From a virus (Duplodnaviria > Caudoviricetes), in IMG/VR virus record IMGVR_UViG_3300025789_000018: 64,000 nt of DNA; one strand, given 5' to 3'. Of the stretch, positions 28,403 through 31,827 are shown one piece after another; the first letter of the stretch is position 1, and the number at the start of each line of letters is the position of its first letter. A program made the translations under genes and the position numbers. The notes below the pieces were generated by a model. The model worked only from the letters and a program-made list of their open reading frames with translations, did no database searches and was not told the DNA's origin.

Positions 28403-28753
28403 ATGAAGCCACTCATTCACGCTAAAGTTTCGGTAAAACGTCATGGTGGTTGTGTAGAAGATTATCTGCCCATTCACAACTTTATCGACTCATCAAAGAT
28501 TTCTATGCCAGATGTACGCCACCGTGCTATTCTGCATAGTTCATTTGGATGCTATCTCGCTGAACAGATGTTCGGTACATACATCACCAATGCTCAAGGC
28601 AAAGATGTGTCTGTACGCGACATTGCAGAAGAACACATTCAAGAAGACTTGGGCTTCATTCCCACTATTGAAAACTGGTTAGAAGAGATTCCACTAAAGC
28701 CTTGGATGTCTGGTGGAGCAAAGAAGCGTCGTGAAGAAAGGCTAGTTGACTGA
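28403..28753 (+). CDS. conserved phage hypothetical protein (His-rich)
   Basis: PLIHAKVSVKRHGG, RHRAILHSSFG, RDIAEEHIQEDLGFIP. Confidence 0.8.
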   Translation: MKPLIHAKVSVKRHGGCVEDYLPIHNFIDSSKISMPDVRHRAILHSSFGCYLAEQMFGTYITNAQGKDVSVRDIAEEHIQEDLGFIPTIENWLEEIPLKPWMSGGAKKRREERLVD

Positions 28754-28832: not shown

Positions 28833-29411
28833 GTGATGAGTGCTTTTGATAATATTACCAAGAAGATCGCTGAAAAGAACTCTGAAATCGATGCGCTTAA
28901 GAAGGCGTACATGAAGGAACTTCAGTCGTCATTCAATGAAATCATCAAGTTGTTCTTTGAGGAATGCCCCAAGGTTCAGGCTGTTGTTTGGTCGCAGTAC
29001 ACTCCATACTTCAACGATGGTGAAGAATGTGTATTCAGCATCAACGAACCGCATTTTATTGTTGAAGGCTTCGATCCTGATGATCTGAAGGATCCTTATG
29101 AATACGAAGATGATGATGAATACAAGACTTTGCAGTATAGCAGTTATCAGACTCTTGAAGAAATCCTGATTCGTTATAAAAATGAACTTGCTAAGCCACA
29201 TGTAAGCGATTGGGTTAAAGGATACTATCCAACGTATATTGCTCAAGTCGAAAAGCAGTTTGAAGAATTTCCTGAATACCACAATAAGATTTTGACGTTT
29301 GTTAAGTTGCTGAACGATAATGAAGATGTACTGCAGGAAGTCTACGGCGATCACGTTGCTGTCTACCTGACTCCAGAAAAGGTTATCGTTGAGGAATATA
29401 GTCACGATTAA
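28833..29411 (+). CDS. conserved phage hypothetical protein
   Basis: WSQYTPYFNDGEECVF motif; acidic. Confidence 0.8.
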   Translation: MMSAFDNITKKIAEKNSEIDALKKAYMKELQSSFNEIIKLFFEECPKVQAVVWSQYTPYFNDGEECVFSINEPHFIVEGFDPDDLKDPYEYEDDDEYKTLQYSSYQTLEEILIRYKNELAKPHVSDWVKGYYPTYIAQVEKQFEEFPEYHNKILTFVKLLNDNEDVLQEVYGDHVAVYLTPEKVIVEEYSHD

Positions 29412-29414
29412 GGG

Positions 29415-29442
29415 TTGACATTTTTAGCGAATCGTATATAGT
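29415..29442 (+). promoter_or_regulatory. sigma70-type early promoter TTGACA-N8-GAATC-N3-TATAGT
   Basis: ttgaca tttttagc gaatc gta tatagt. Confidence 0.85.
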
Positions 29443-29529
29443 GGGAATATAGAGAGCGAACGAGTGGTCTTTCGCAGATTGGCAGTCGCCTAAGTGGACC
29501 TCGCTCTCATATTTTTTTGGAGATTCGCT

Positions 29530-29745
29530 ATGAAAGTTTTTGGTGCTGCTCTGTTCATTTTCGGCGGTCTTCTGATTGCTGGTTCTGCCAGTGCTGATGA
29601 TTACTGGGAAGCATGTCGCCACGCTGTAGATTGTGTTGCAGGTGATCCTCCCAGTGGTCTAGTACAAATCGCTGAGTTGACTTTTGGATTGATCTTTGCT
29701 ATCGTTGGATGTCGTTTTCTGATGCTTGGCTTTGATCAAGACTAA
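29530..29745 (+). CDS. small two-TM membrane protein (71 aa)
   Basis: MKVFGAALFIFGGLLIAGSASADD...FGLIFAIVGCRFLML; GGAG SD. Confidence 0.65.
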   Translation: MKVFGAALFIFGGLLIAGSASADDYWEACRHAVDCVAGDPPSGLVQIAELTFGLIFAIVGCRFLMLGFDQD

Positions 29746-29769: not shown

Positions 29770-29937
29770 ATGATGTTGGTTAAGCAGTATTCTCTACCTA
29801 CTTTTAAACAAGGATATCGTGCTATCTCCAATACACGAAGCGAACTTATGAAACGATATCGTGCTGGTCAGAAGTTGGATGTCGAAGAGAAAGACTGGCT
29901 GGACTGGTCTGATATCGCGCTGGATCAAACTAACTAA
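29770..29937 (+). CDS. small hypothetical protein (55 aa)
   Basis: Not in track. GAGGAGG SD; MMLVKQYSLPTFKQGYRAISNTRSELMKRYRAGQKLDVEEKDWLDW... Confidence 0.65.
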   Translation: MMLVKQYSLPTFKQGYRAISNTRSELMKRYRAGQKLDVEEKDWLDWSDIALDQTN

Positions 29938-29944
29938 GCTTTAT

Positions 29945-30023
29945 GCGCTGGTATGCCGCCTGACTTCTAATCAGGAGAAAGCTAACTGGACACATGGGGG
30001 TTCGAATCCCTCCCAGCGCGCCA
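29945..30023 (+). tRNA. tRNA-Arg(UCU)-like RNA lacking a D-arm
   Basis: GCGCTGG/CCAGCGC acceptor stem, CCTGA-CTTCTAA-TCAGG anticodon arm, GGGGG-TTCGAAT-CCCTC T-arm, GCCA end; only 7 nt where the D-arm should be. Confidence 0.75.
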
Positions 30024-30051
30024 GATTCTATATTCAATATTTCTTAGGGCT

Positions 30052-30261
30052 TTGATTATGATTGAAGGGTTGAACTTATGTATTCGAAGCACCGAAACTA
30101 TCAATAAAGGCATGGGCGGAAGAGATATGCCTTTGTATTATCTTAAAAAGTGTAAGACTGCACTTGAAGTTGCGACAGTCGCATTAGAAGAAGCATATGC
30201 TTCTGATGATGCAACAGAAATGCGACATATCATTTCTAATGCTCTGGAAGCTTTAAAGTGA
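30052..30261 (+). CDS. hypothetical protein (69 aa), 3' end overlaps a tRNA
   Basis: ORF in track; weak SD. Confidence 0.45.
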   Translation: MIMIEGLNLCIRSTETINKGMGGRDMPLYYLKKCKTALEVATVALEEAYASDDATEMRHIISNALEALK

Positions 30262-30314
30262 AGCCAGCCGCTCATAACGGCTAGAAGGCGGGGCAGTACC
30301 GTCACGGAGTACCA
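30241..30314 (+). tRNA. tRNA with CAU anticodon (Ile2 or Met), non-canonical
   Basis: GCTT/AAGC D-stem, AGCCG-CTCATAA-CGGCT anticodon arm, GGCGG-GGCAGTA-CCGTC T-arm, ACCA end; 74 nt. Confidence 0.7.
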
Positions 30315-30331
30315 AAAAAGAAAGTTTGTAA

Positions 30332-30408
30332 GGACCCTTAGCTTAGTAGGCTAAAGCATTCGACTTTTAATCGAAAGATCCTGGGTTCGAGTCCCAGAGG
30401 GTCCACCA
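30332..30408 (+). tRNA. tRNA-Lys (UUU)
   Basis: Canonical 77-nt cloverleaf, TTCGA-CTTTTAA-TCGAA, encoded CCA. Confidence 0.95.
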
Positions 30409-30571
30409 AACTAAGTGAAGGTAATTTATGATCAAGATCATACTTGTTGTGATGTTAATTTCGGTTGCAATAGCTATCATCAACGGTATATGTGATAAGG
30501 ATGATAATACTGCTGGTTGGAGTTAGCAACAAGGATACTGGTGAAAATCCAGGCGGGTCCACCAATTTAAT

Positions 30572-30646
30572 GCGCGATTAACTCAGCGGTAGAGTGCTGT
30601 CCTGACTCGACAGATGCCGGAAGTTCGATCCTTCCATCGCGCACCA
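30572..30646 (+). tRNA. tRNA-Val (GAC)
   Basis: 75-nt cloverleaf, CTGTC-CTGACTC-GACAG, A73, encoded CCA; unusual U37. Confidence 0.85.
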
Positions 30647-30649
30647 ATA

Positions 30650-31231
30650 TTATTGTGAAACTCTAAAAGCAGAACTTACACCCAAGGTAAACTTGTGTTC
30701 GCTATAGCCAATGTCAAACTGTAGATTCTGTTTCTTAGGTGGAACCCATGAAACATAGATGCCAGTTTTGACCTTTGTGTCATAGTAGACAGAAGGCATG
30801 ATTGTAAGTGTATCTGTTGGTGTAAAGTTGTATTCAGTCACATATGTCTGTGAATGTTTAGCAATCTGAACATCTGTACCAAAGTAAAAGTATTTGTTAA
30901 AAACATACTTTGATGGCACTTCAATGAAAACACCATTGTTATTATCGTATCCTAGCTTGGCTGATAAGTCAAACTTGTGATTATAAATGATAGCATACTT
31001 TGCACCAAAGCTGGTGTTATCTTTGGATACTTCTAAGTCCTTTGCAATAGCCATTCTAAACTCATAACCATCAGTACCTATTTCAGCCTGAAAAGTTTTA
31101 AGTGGAATGACGTCAGCATCGATACCTACGCCTGGTCTATCAGCATTGATCTGTTGATCTTCCGCGAGTGCTGGAGCAGAGAACAGAAGTGTTAGTGCTA
31201 CTATTACTGCTTTTGTTCTACGTAGCCACAT
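30650..31231 (-). CDS. secreted/outer-membrane beta-barrel-like protein
   Basis: Signal peptide ending ALA|ED, INADRPG motif, alternating aromatic beta strands, C-terminal LGVSSAF. Confidence 0.6.
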   Translation of the reverse strand: MWLRRTKAVIVALTLLFSAPALAEDQQINADRPGVGIDADVIPLKTFQAEIGTDGYEFRMAIAKDLEVSKDNTSFGAKYAIIYNHKFDLSAKLGYDNNNGVFIEVPSKYVFNKYFYFGTDVQIAKHSQTYVTEYNFTPTDTLTIMPSVYYDTKVKTGIYVSWVPPKKQNLQFDIGYSEHKFTLGVSSAFRVSQ

Positions 31232-31566
31232 CCTGCTTTGTCCTCATGGAGTGATGTTAGTTCGACATGCATTGCTTTGATTTCAGCAAACTCGGCCAAG
31301 ATCGTTTCGTGATCTTGCTGGCTTCTAGCTTCTGTCTTTCTGGCTTGAACTTCTTGACCTACCATGATTACACTAAGTAGAACTAGTTGAAGAAATGTCT
31401 GTGCGATCCATGAGATTGTAGCTGCAAGCCCAGCGTGAATAGCGTCTGGTAGACTGATTAGAGCCAACAAAGCAAACGCATAAGCACACCACATGGTGCC
31501 TACTGTATCTGTAAGGGTCACTGCAACCATGTCGTTGAACTTAGTGATGTTATCTTTGATAGACAT
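31204..31566 (-). CDS. membrane protein (DUF1003-like)
   Basis: Two TM segments, WIAQTFLQLVLLSVIMVGQ. Confidence 0.6.
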   Translation of the reverse strand: MSIKDNITKFNDMVAVTLTDTVGTMWCAYAFALLALISLPDAIHAGLAATISWIAQTFLQLVLLSVIMVGQEVQARKTEARSQQDHETILAEFAEIKAMHVELTSLHEDKAGCGYVEQKQ

Positions 31567-31611
31567 GATTATACTCCCTTTTTATTATTATTTATGATTT
31601 AGAGAGTTTGT

Positions 31612-31696
31612 GCGGGCGTGGGGGAATTGGTAGACCCGCGAGACTTAAAATCTTGTTGCTTCGGCAGTGCTGGTTCGATTCCAGTCGCCCGTACCA
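31612..31696 (+). tRNA. tRNA-Leu (UAA)
   Basis: 85 nt, CGAGA-CTTAAAA-TCTTG, long variable arm with TTCG loop, encoded CCA. Confidence 0.95.
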
Positions 31697-31712
31697 AATA
31701 AGTAACGAATAC

Positions 31713-31786
31713 TGCCCTTTCGTCTAATGGTAGGACCACGCCCTTTGAAGGCGTTAATCTTGGTTCGAATCCAAGCGGAGCATCCA
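31713..31786 (+). tRNA. tRNA-Gln (UUG)
   Basis: ACGCC-CTTTGAA-GGCGT, canonical T-arm, encoded CCA; the acceptor stem has two mismatches. Confidence 0.8.
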
Positions 31787-31795
31787 AAGTTTAAA

Positions 31796-31827
31796 GGGGA
31801 GTAGTTTTGCTACTCCCCCTTTTTTTA
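31796..31827. terminator. bidirectional intrinsic terminator
   Basis: GGGGAGTAG/CTACTCCCC stem with a T-run on plus and an A-rich flank, between convergent transcription units. Confidence 0.85.

What the first reader, a model, noticed from the sequence alone, without database searches (positions are those of the whole stretch)
29945..30023. D-armless tRNA-Arg(UCU) with a D-loop-like motif displaced to the 3' side of the anticodon arm
Seen: strong acceptor, anticodon and T arms plus an encoded CCA, but only 7 nt (TATGCCG) between the acceptor and anticodon stems. A 20-nt insert (AGAAAGCTAACTGGACACAT) follows the anticodon arm and contains AGCT-AACTGGA, which looks like a D-loop with its GG. 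ATG(29953-55) can pair with CAT(29993-95). All stems are intact, which argues against random decay. Inference: a topologically rearranged tRNA that may rebuild the elbow from the variable region, or a tRNA mimic/decoy for synthetases or anticodon nucleases.
Basis: partly seen in the sequence, partly recalled or inferred. Interest (0 to 1): 0.72.

Follow-up and report, generated by a model that had tools for sequence, protein, structure and literature searches.

The report
Rewired phage arginine tRNA gene
This 79-base gene in a T4-like phage is a conserved arginine tRNA (anticodon UCU) whose D-stem strand and D-loop lie after the anticodon arm instead of before it; this non-cloverleaf layout is shared by well over a hundred phage contigs, and I found no paper describing it.

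Summary
Window 29945-30023 (+) has perfect acceptor, anticodon (UCU) and T arms, an encoded CCA, a 7-nt linker where the D arm should be, and a 20-nt insert carrying a D-loop-like UAACUGGA. It is not a decayed gene. Pattern scans found the same layout in more than 145 viral loci (124 unique sequences). Every one has an arginine anticodon, the stems change in a compensatory way, and an invariant GGA is present even where the search did not require it. A short helix between the linker and the bases just 5' of the D-loop motif covaries (100% and 99% paired, four pair types each), and so does the R15:Y48 tertiary pair. The best reading is a working tRNA-Arg with tRNA positions 10-21 moved to the variable region, which keeps the L-shape and the ArgRS determinant A20. 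ARAGORN finds 7 of 124, and the members in Caulobacter, Microbacterium, Streptomyces and Sinorhizobium phage records are unannotated. Eight literature searches found no description. This scan has reported the same family on other genomes at least a dozen times. One later check of that claim partly failed, and I do not know which part.

The parts
29945..29951 (+). Acceptor stem, 5' strand (GCGCTGG)
   Evidence: Pairs 7/7 with 30013-30019. All seven pairs show double changes across the family.
29952..29953 (+). U8 and A9 equivalents
   Evidence: TA stands at this position in every member listed by the scans before any filter on it. My later parser required it.
29954..29958 (+). Linker TGCCG, playing the part of tRNA positions 22-26. 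G29955 and C29956 form the short D-type helix.
   Evidence: nt11 with the base just 5' of U13 is paired in 100% of 90 class A members, with 4 pair types. nt12 with the next base is paired in 99%, with 4 types. 0 of 2000 shuffles reach either value. Tool count on A3: CG44/GC6/UA3 and CG38/GC9/AU5.
29959..29975 (+). Anticodon arm: stem CCTGA/TCAGG, loop CTTCTAA, anticodon UCU at 29966-29968
   Evidence: The stem is 99% paired with double changes at all 5 pairs. The loop CT.NNN.AA occurs in 103 of 124 members.
29976..29979 (+). Purine-rich spacer AGAA after the anticodon stem (position 44-45 region)
   Evidence: AGAAAG is conserved in the window's subclass. Its role is inferred only.
29980..29983 (+). 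AGCT, equivalent of D-stem strand 10-13. G29981 and C29982 pair with C29956 and G29955. A29980 opposite C29957 and T29983 opposite T29954 are mismatches.
   Evidence: Matches GCTC(10-13)+AGCTGGA of ordinary phage tRNA-Arg(UCU) in alignment A5.
29984..29990 (+). Relocated D-loop AACTGGA (A14 29984, A15 29985, G18 29988, G19 29989, A20 29990)
   Evidence: GGA is present in all 55 subclass members found with a pattern that did not require it, and in 67 rearranged members of the ACG-anchored scan.
29991..29995 (+). CACAT, the link to the T arm. T29995 is the Y48 partner of A15 (Levitt-type pair).
   Evidence: R15 with the last base of the insert: AT 116, GC 5, GG 2, GT 1.
29996..30012 (+). T arm: GGGGG / TTCGAAT / CCCTC
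   Evidence: In the subclass scan, which did not fix the T arm, the loops are TTCGAGT, TTCGAAT, TTCGACT and similar, and 54 of 55 T stems are 5/5 paired.
30013..30023 (+). Acceptor 3' strand CCAGCGC, discriminator G30020, encoded CCA 30021-30023
   Evidence: CCA is encoded in 44 of 55 subclass members. Close relatives differ only at the discriminator, A instead of G.
29415..29442 (+). Promoter-like site TTGACA-16-TATAGT upstream of two small ORFs and the tRNA cluster
   Evidence: Consensus scan, 11 of 12 matches. Consensus only; the number of such sites does not exceed the shuffled expectation.
30332..31786 (+). Ordinary tRNA genes of the same cluster: Lys 30332-30408, Val 30572-30646, Leu 31612-31696, Gln 31713-31786
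   Evidence: ARAGORN and Rfam.
31796..31818 (+). Terminator-like hairpin (10 pairs) followed by a T run, just after tRNA-Gln

Best explanation
It is a working phage gene for tRNA-Arg(UCU) with a rewired core. Compared with an ordinary tRNA, the segment for positions 10-21 (5' strand of the D stem plus the D loop) lies after the anticodon arm. The 7-nt linker left behind supplies U8, A9 and the opposite D-stem strand (22-26). Proposed working, all inferred: the RNA is transcribed with the neighbouring tRNA genes and trimmed to its encoded CCA. The acceptor and T arms stack as usual. The linker (G29955, C29956) pairs with G29981 and C29982, making a short helix that closes around the anticodon arm and stacks on it, as the D stem does in a normal tRNA. 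The relocated loop AACUGGA reaches the T loop with G18 and G19. U8:A14 and A15:U48 tie the core together. The host's arginyl-tRNA synthetase then reads A20, C35, U36 and G73, and the charged tRNA decodes AGA. What is shown is conservation, covariation and the sequence-level identity elements. Folding, charging and decoding are inferred. Why the rewiring was kept is unknown.
For: The gene is under selection. A relative (L010) is 83.7% identical in the upstream flank but 79/79 identical in the tRNA. The window's own subclass, found with a pattern fixing only linker and spacer, gives 55 unique tRNA-like sequences. They have 41 different acceptor strands, 27 anticodon stems and 11 T stems. All acceptor stems are 7/7 paired, all anticodon stems are 5/5 paired, and 54 of 55 T stems are 5/5 paired. 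On alignment A3, 96.2% of cells are paired, 18 of 21 pairs change on both sides, and 0 of 500 shuffles reach this. Slid controls give 33-46%. The D-type helix covaries in class A. In the 8-nt-linker class it is a 5-bp helix interrupted by the D-loop as a bulge (10-48: GC13/AU11/CG1; 13-37: GC21/AU2/GU1/UA1). Tertiary partners are kept: R15:Y48 is AT 116 and GC 5, and GGA is invariant where not imposed. All 70 members from the scan that set no anticodon carry Arg anticodons. So do all 124 unique members (ACG 65, TCT 40, TCG 13, CCT 5, CCG 1). A20, C35, U/G36 and A/G73 are the bacterial arginine identity set, and A20 is the main ArgRS determinant (PMC9976931). The window has A20, C35, U36 and G73. 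Members sit in tRNA clusters (median 9 tRNAs per locus). Where an ordinary tRNA-Arg is nearby (64 loci), it has a different anticodon in 55. AGA is 19% of Arg codons in this phage's large genes. The acceptor and T arms are almost the same as in ordinary phage tRNA-Arg(UCU). E. coli's translation machinery accepts even a fully D-armless tRNA (PMC11551756).
Against: In this window the D-type helix has only two Watson-Crick pairs, flanked by U.U and C.A. The third pair forms in only 49% of class A members. The predicted folding energy is not unusual (z = -0.69). In 9 loci an ordinary tRNA-Arg with the same anticodon sits beside the rewired one, which hints at a non-redundant role. The host is unknown, and so is the reason for the rewiring.
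Confidence: 0.68

Rival explanations
1. It is a working tRNA-Arg whose rewired core was selected as counter-defence. The altered D region would hide it from a host (or phage-made) nuclease or modifier that attacks ordinary tRNA-Arg, while ArgRS, EF-Tu and the ribosome still accept it. This is a special case of the best explanation, with a stated reason for the rewiring.
For: The family is almost confined to viral contigs and to phage-like tRNA islands in MAG contigs. In 9 loci, including Microbacterium phage Zooman, a rewired and an ordinary tRNA-Arg with the same anticodon stand side by side. Phage tRNAs are known to rescue translation from tRNA-cutting defences (titles and abstracts of PMC11555353 and bioRxiv 10.1101/2025.02.04.636281, seen).
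Against: I found no described defence that targets tRNA-Arg through its D arm. The anticodon loop, the usual nuclease target, is unchanged from ordinary tRNA-Arg. No linked nuclease or defence gene was seen next to the element. One origin followed by spread could explain the distribution without any such benefit.
Confidence: 0.17
2. It is a tRNA mimic or decoy that is not used in translation. For example, it could soak up an anticodon nuclease or ArgRS, or serve another enzyme that takes tRNA-Arg.
For: The architecture is unusual, and ARAGORN finds only 7 of 124 members. A same-anticodon ordinary tRNA-Arg co-occurs in 9 loci. There is no expression or charging evidence either way.
Against: A decoy has no need for five anticodons that track the arginine codon boxes, nor for anticodons that mostly complement the neighbouring ordinary tRNA-Arg genes (55 of 64 loci). 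The full acceptor stem, discriminator, CCA, T arm and A20 are all kept. The mascRNA model scores only 16.6 bits against a threshold of 42.5.
Confidence: 0.12
3. It is a decaying tRNA pseudogene produced by a recent deletion and insertion in a normal tRNA-Arg.
For: The normal D hairpin is absent, the Rfam score is lower than for the neighbouring tRNAs (40.9 against 47-76 bits), and ARAGORN does not call it.
Against: The tRNA is identical across relatives whose flanks have diverged. 55 subclass members and 124 family members have intact, covarying stems and an invariant core. A family model separates them sharply from ordinary tRNAs: 84 bits against 21 or less in the window, and 83.4 bits for a non-seed member.
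Confidence: 0.02

Closest known systems
Ordinary bacterial and phage tRNA-Arg(UCU) (Rfam RF00005), for example the annotated genes of Pseudomonas phage PA5oct (EST35_0403), Caulobacter phage Ccr10 (tRNA22) and Stenotrophomonas phage RAS14
   Same: The acceptor stem, T arm, discriminator and CCA are nearly identical. The anticodon loop CTTCTAA is the same, and so is the D-loop sequence type (A-R-C-T-G-G-A with A20).
   Different: In the ordinary genes, positions 10-21 precede the anticodon arm and form a hairpin with 22-25. Here they follow the anticodon arm, and the helix they form with the linker encloses that arm.
D-armless mitochondrial tRNAs, for example mammalian and Ascaris mt-tRNA-Ser (review PMC7609411), and the synthetic D-armless 'mini HisT' used by E. 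coli (PMC11551756)
   Same: A short connector stands between the acceptor and anticodon stems, and there is no D hairpin. These cases show that translation can use non-cloverleaf tRNAs.
   Different: Those tRNAs lose the D loop and its contacts with the T loop. Here the D loop (G18, G19, A20), a canonical T loop, and U8/A14/R15/Y48 are all kept, so a normal elbow is expected. Those are organellar or man-made, whereas this is a natural phage family for bacterial hosts.
Class II tRNAs with a long variable arm (Leu, Ser, bacterial Tyr)
   Same: Extra nucleotides lie between the anticodon arm and the T arm. Rfam aligns the insert there.
   Different: A class II variable arm is its own hairpin and coexists with a normal D arm. 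Here the insert forms no hairpin, pairs with the linker, and there is no D hairpin.
Permuted tRNA genes of the red alga Cyanidioschyzon merolae (recalled from my own knowledge, not looked up)
   Same: The segments of the tRNA lie in a non-standard order in the gene.
   Different: Those genes place the 3' half before the 5' half and are restored to the normal order through a circular intermediate. Here the 5' and 3' ends are in the normal places, and no single cut-and-join would restore the cloverleaf order.

Membership tests
tRNA (Rfam RF00005; canonical cloverleaf elongator tRNA) | Score at or above the curated gathering threshold of the tRNA covariance model | tested here: met
   40.9 bits against 29.
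tRNA (Rfam RF00005; canonical cloverleaf elongator tRNA) | 7-bp acceptor stem, discriminator, 5-bp T stem with T loop TTCRANY, and 5-bp anticodon stem with a 7-nt loop carrying U33 and a purine at 37 | tested here: met
   Read directly from the sequence. The stems covary.
tRNA (Rfam RF00005; canonical cloverleaf elongator tRNA) | D-arm hairpin (positions 10-25) between the acceptor and anticodon stems | tested here: not met
   Only 7 nt lie there. Rfam's alignment deletes the D arm, and ARAGORN makes no call.
Bacterial tRNA-Arg (substrate of ArgRS) | Identity set A20, C35, U/G36, A/G73 (PMC9976931) | tested here: met
   A29990 follows G18 and G19. The anticodon is UCU and the discriminator is G30020. 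This is a sequence-level test only.
Bacterial tRNA-Arg (substrate of ArgRS) | The RNA is expressed, processed and aminoacylated with arginine | not testable with these tools
No wet-lab data were available.
Rewired phage tRNA-Arg family (defined in this scan; I found no published name) | Linker of TA plus 5-6 nt, whose nt 11-12 pair with the two bases just 5' of U13 | tested here: met
   G29955-C29982 and C29956-G29981. The family covaries at both pairs.
Rewired phage tRNA-Arg family (defined in this scan; I found no published name) | D-loop-like U-A-R-N(0-3)-G-G-A placed after the anticodon arm, with R15:Y48 kept | tested here: met
   TAACTGGA at 29983-29990, with A15 (29985) and T29995.
Rewired phage tRNA-Arg family (defined in this scan; I found no published name) | Arginine anticodon | tested here: met
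   UCU here. 124 of 124 unique members carry Arg anticodons.
Rewired phage tRNA-Arg family (defined in this scan; I found no published name) | High score with the family covariance model R1 | tested here: met
   84.2 bits, but the window sequence is in the seed, so it matches by construction. The non-seed Zooman member scores 83.4 bits, and ordinary tRNAs score 34 bits or less.
D-armless mitochondrial-type tRNA | Loss of the D loop and of the D-loop/T-loop elbow contacts, with a degenerate T loop | tested here: not met
   G18, G19 and A20 and a canonical T loop TTCGAAT are present and conserved.
Class II tRNA (long variable arm) | The variable region forms its own stem-loop beside a normal D arm | tested here: not met
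   The insert forms no stable hairpin, and there is no D hairpin.
mascRNA / tRNA-like mimic (RF01684) | Score above the family threshold | tested here: not met
   16.6 bits against 42.5.

The most novel reading that the evidence does not exclude
The rewired core is an adaptation, not an accident. It would let phages supply arginine tRNAs that ArgRS and the ribosome accept, but that escape a host or phage factor which recognises the ordinary D-arm region of tRNA-Arg. That would make this a structural, rather than anticodon-loop, route of tRNA-based counter-defence.
Probability: 0.17. Interest if true: 0.92.

Novelty: new variant of a known kind. Interest (0 to 1): 0.8.

Why it matters
The cloverleaf is treated as universal outside organelles. 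[quoted passage not shown] A large natural family of tRNAs for bacterial translation, with core segments in a different order but all tertiary partners kept, would give an unplanned test of which connections in the tRNA core matter. The family could supply ready-made orthogonal-looking scaffolds. It would also show that phage tRNA sets are under-counted, since ARAGORN found only 7 of 124 members and the four cultured-phage records inspected leave them unannotated. It raises a clear question: why arginine only? One lead is that A20 in the D loop is the main ArgRS determinant, which is unique among tRNA families (PMC9976931). Cultured phages of Caulobacter, Microbacterium, Streptomyces and Sinorhizobium carry members, so the question can be tested directly.

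Tried and rejected
(2) Close named relatives: blastn of 601 nt against the phage collection hit only the tRNA part, in three records. The phage itself has no near relative there; its major head protein is at most 67% identical to named phages.
A9 and the last T never vary, and nt10 changes without compensation.
(4) A bulged-AAA model, in which C29957 pairs with G29977, fits only some subclasses by eye and was dropped. 
(5) The pseudogene, class II variable arm, permuted-gene, intron and mascRNA-like readings are rejected (see the membership tests). 
(6) Thermodynamics alone is uninformative (z = -0.69).
(7) Flanking small ORFs 29494-29745, 29770-29937 and 30052-30261 have no PHROG match, and 28403-28753 and 28833-29411 match only families of unknown function. 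No linked enzyme was found.
(8) Eight literature searches and three papers searched for key terms gave no description of this layout. Subscription-only papers were not searchable.
The 9 family hits (8 unique sequences) are all in MAG contigs, and the 8 loci I scanned are dense tRNA islands.

Full report
**Observation.**
- The 7-bp acceptor stem is GCGCTGG/CCAGCGC.
- A 7-nt linker, TATGCCG, follows it.
- The anticodon arm is CCTGA-CTTCTAA-TCAGG, with anticodon UCU at 29966-29968.
- A 20-nt insert, AGAAAGCTAACTGGACACAT, follows the anticodon arm.
- The T arm is GGGGG-TTCGAAT-CCCTC, followed by discriminator G and an encoded CCA.

Rfam's tRNA model matches at 40.9 bits (threshold 29). It deletes the D arm and places 17 nt as an insertion in the variable region. 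ARAGORN does not call the element, although it finds five ordinary tRNAs in the window. The predicted folding energy is unremarkable (z = -0.69).

**Setting.** The window is part of a T4-like myovirus. It encodes a DNA polymerase, an SbcC-like nuclease subunit, a helicase, a major head protein, a portal and a tail sheath. G+C is about 40%. The head protein is at most 67% identical to those of named phages such as Stenotrophomonas DLP6, Sinorhizobium phiM12 and Pelagibacter Mosig.

The element opens a plus-strand tRNA cluster (Lys, Val, Leu, Gln) set among minus-strand genes. A promoter-like site lies at 29415-29442 and a terminator-like hairpin at 31796-31818. These are consensus matches only. 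AGA makes up 19% of arginine codons in the 24 largest ORFs, and 24% in the structural genes.

**Selection on the gene.** An IMG/VR record 99% identical over 1.3 kb carries the same element. A more distant relative (L010) is 83.7% identical in the 530 nt upstream, yet its tRNA is identical at all 79 positions. It also lacks the Lys/Val block that follows in the window.

**The family.** I ran four pattern scans of viral contigs.
- Scan 1 required the anticodon loop UCU followed by a long gap to the T loop. It found five distinct sequences with the same layout in unrelated contigs.
- Scan 2 required the D-loop-like motif 4-14 nt before the T loop and set no anticodon.
- Scan 3 required an ACG loop followed by a long gap and set no D-loop motif. 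It gave 96 unique hits, of which 67 were rearranged members. All 67 carried U-A-R-N(0-3)-GGA.
- Scan 4 fixed only the window's own linker and spacer. This complete list covers 76 contigs and gave 55 unique tRNA-like sequences.

The 55 sequences from scan 4 have these properties:
- They contain 41 different acceptor strands, 27 different anticodon stems and 11 different T stems. All acceptor stems are 7/7 paired, all anticodon stems are 5/5 paired, and 54 of 55 T stems are 5/5 paired.
- All have Arg anticodons (TCG 27, TCT 24, ACG 3, CCT 1).
- All have GGA in the D-loop-like motif and T loops of the form TTCRANY.
- 44 of 55 encode CCA.

Over all loci I parsed 124 unique members: ACG 65, TCT 40, TCG 13, CCT 5 and CCG 1.

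**Structure.** On a 53-sequence alignment of the 7-nt-linker class (A3), 96.2% of cells pair. Eighteen of 21 pairs change on both sides, no shuffle out of 500 reaches these values, and sliding the partners drops pairing to 33-46%.

Besides the three classical stems, two pairs link the linker to the bases just 5' of the U that precedes the D-loop motif:
- Columns 11-38 are CG 44, GC 6 and UA 3.
- Columns 12-37 are CG 38, GC 9 and AU 5.

In 90 unique members these two pairs are 100% and 99% paired, with four pair types each. The shuffle mean is 0.57, 0 of 2000 shuffles reach the observed value, and slid controls give 0.43-0.48. A third pair forms in about half of the members. In the window that position is C.A.

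In the 8-nt-linker class the helix has five pairs. Its 3' strand is split by the 8-nt U-AAYUGGA, which therefore lies as a bulge (A4). The pair counts there are:
- 9-49: AU 23.
- 10-48: GC 13, AU 11, CG 1.
- 11-47: CG 20 plus three other types.
- 12-38: CG 25.
- 13-37: GC 21, AU 2, GU 1, UA 1.

In both classes the helix encloses the anticodon arm. The base after the first A of the loop motif covaries with the last base before the T stem, as the R15:Y48 Levitt pair does: A:U 116, G:C 5, G:G 2, G:U 1.

**Comparison with ordinary tRNA-Arg.** I aligned the element with ordinary phage tRNA-Arg(UCU) genes that share almost the same acceptor and T arms. The insert's AGCT-AACTGGA-CA corresponds to positions 10-21 of those genes (GCTC-AGCTGGATA). 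The linker's TGCC-G corresponds to positions 22-26.

The simplest description is that segment 10-21 has moved from before the anticodon arm to the variable region. Helix geometry makes this plausible, and this step is my inference. In a normal tRNA the strand 22-25 runs on into the 5' strand of the anticodon stem. The strand 10-13 lies in line with the 3' strand of the anticodon stem and is followed by the D loop. The rewired order makes those spatial neighbours covalent neighbours.

**Function.** The bacterial arginine identity set is A20, C35, U/G36 and A/G73. A20 in the D loop is the main determinant for ArgRS, and this is unique among tRNA families (PMC9976931). The window has all four.

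Other points bear on function:
- The loops CUUCUAA and CUACGAA are those of ordinary tRNA-Arg (for E. coli, from my own knowledge).
- Members lie in tRNA clusters, with a median of 9 ARAGORN tRNAs per locus of at most about 15 kb.
- In 64 of 145 loci an ordinary tRNA-Arg is also present. It has a different anticodon in 55 and the same anticodon in 9.
- E. coli's synthetase, EF-Tu and ribosome accept even a D-armless tRNA, with PNPase as the obstacle (PMC11551756).

I therefore read the element as a working tRNA-Arg(UCU) with confidence of about 0.68. Nothing here shows expression or charging.

The restriction to arginine is most simply explained by one origin in a tRNA-Arg. Later anticodon changes would then have been limited by the C35/A20 identity rules. 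This is inference.

**Distribution.**
- In the species-genome collection the same pattern mostly hit ordinary class II tRNAs. The 9 family hits (8 unique sequences) are all in MAG contigs. The 8 loci I scanned are dense islands of 13-25 tRNA genes, as in large phages.
- ARAGORN finds 7 of 124 members, 4 of them as tRNA-Arg.
- A family model (R1) gives 84.2 bits to the window element, which is a seed member. It gives 83.4 bits to a non-seed member, and 34 bits or less to every ordinary tRNA it matched.
- Cultured phages carry unannotated members: Microbacterium phage Zooman (two), Streptomyces phage TunaTartare, Caulobacter phage Ccr10 and Sinorhizobium phage Phosso.

**Novelty.** Eight full-text searches, plus term look-ups in a 2020 review of non-canonical tRNAs, a 2023 identity review and a 2024 paper on non-canonical folds, gave no description of this layout. 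Papers outside the library could not be searched.

The scan's own notebook shows the same family reported on other genomes at least a dozen times, with the same reading. I reached my reading before looking at those notes. One note says that a later check of the same claim 'partly fell', without saying which part. I therefore claim only what I tested here. In particular I do not claim that the family is strictly phage-only, nor that every gene finder misses it.

Noticed in passing
window 30241-30314: The scan's notes hold a separate first-reader finding of an odd CAU tRNA with altered D and T loops, overlapping the end of ORF 30052-30261. ARAGORN does not call it, and Rfam's tRNA model gives no match even at E up to 10.
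   Followed up: partly
L005 5423-5510; L006/L008/L016; L009; L013; L136/L141/L221: Some phage tRNA genes have a normal D arm and an arginine anticodon (UCU or ACG) but a long variable arm of about 17-25 nt, which looks like a class II layout with an Arg anticodon. They could be relatives or intermediates of the rewired family, or tRNAs of another identity reading Arg codons.
   Followed up: no
L148, L149, L170, L174 (ACG-anchored hits): A further odd tRNA-like type has a CTACGAA loop without a good 5-bp anticodon stem. A helix CTGCC/GGCAG seems to enclose that region, and a normal T arm, acceptor 3' strand and CCA follow.
   Followed up: no
window 30024-30642 versus L010: A relative keeps the rewired tRNA-Arg unchanged but has about 154 nt where the window has 619 nt (a small ORF, the CAU tRNA-like stretch, tRNA-Lys, tRNA-Val). 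This is an insertion/deletion polymorphism inside the tRNA cluster.
   Followed up: partly
L343 (Microbacterium phage Zooman, OK040793 89043-89340): An annotated ordinary tRNA-Arg(ACG), an unannotated rewired tRNA-Arg(ACG) and an annotated tRNA-Arg(CCG) lie in a row. A second rewired copy lies at 95033-95111.
   Followed up: partly
L318 (MAG contig JAJFLM010000305.1): A tRNA island holds a suppressor-type tRNA (anticodon UUA), six tRNA-Leu genes and four tRNA-Gln genes beside a rewired tRNA-Arg(ACG).
   Followed up: no
window 30650-31566 (-): Two minus-strand ORFs (193 and 120 aa) without any PHROG match sit inside the plus-strand tRNA cluster, between tRNA-Val and tRNA-Leu.
   Followed up: no
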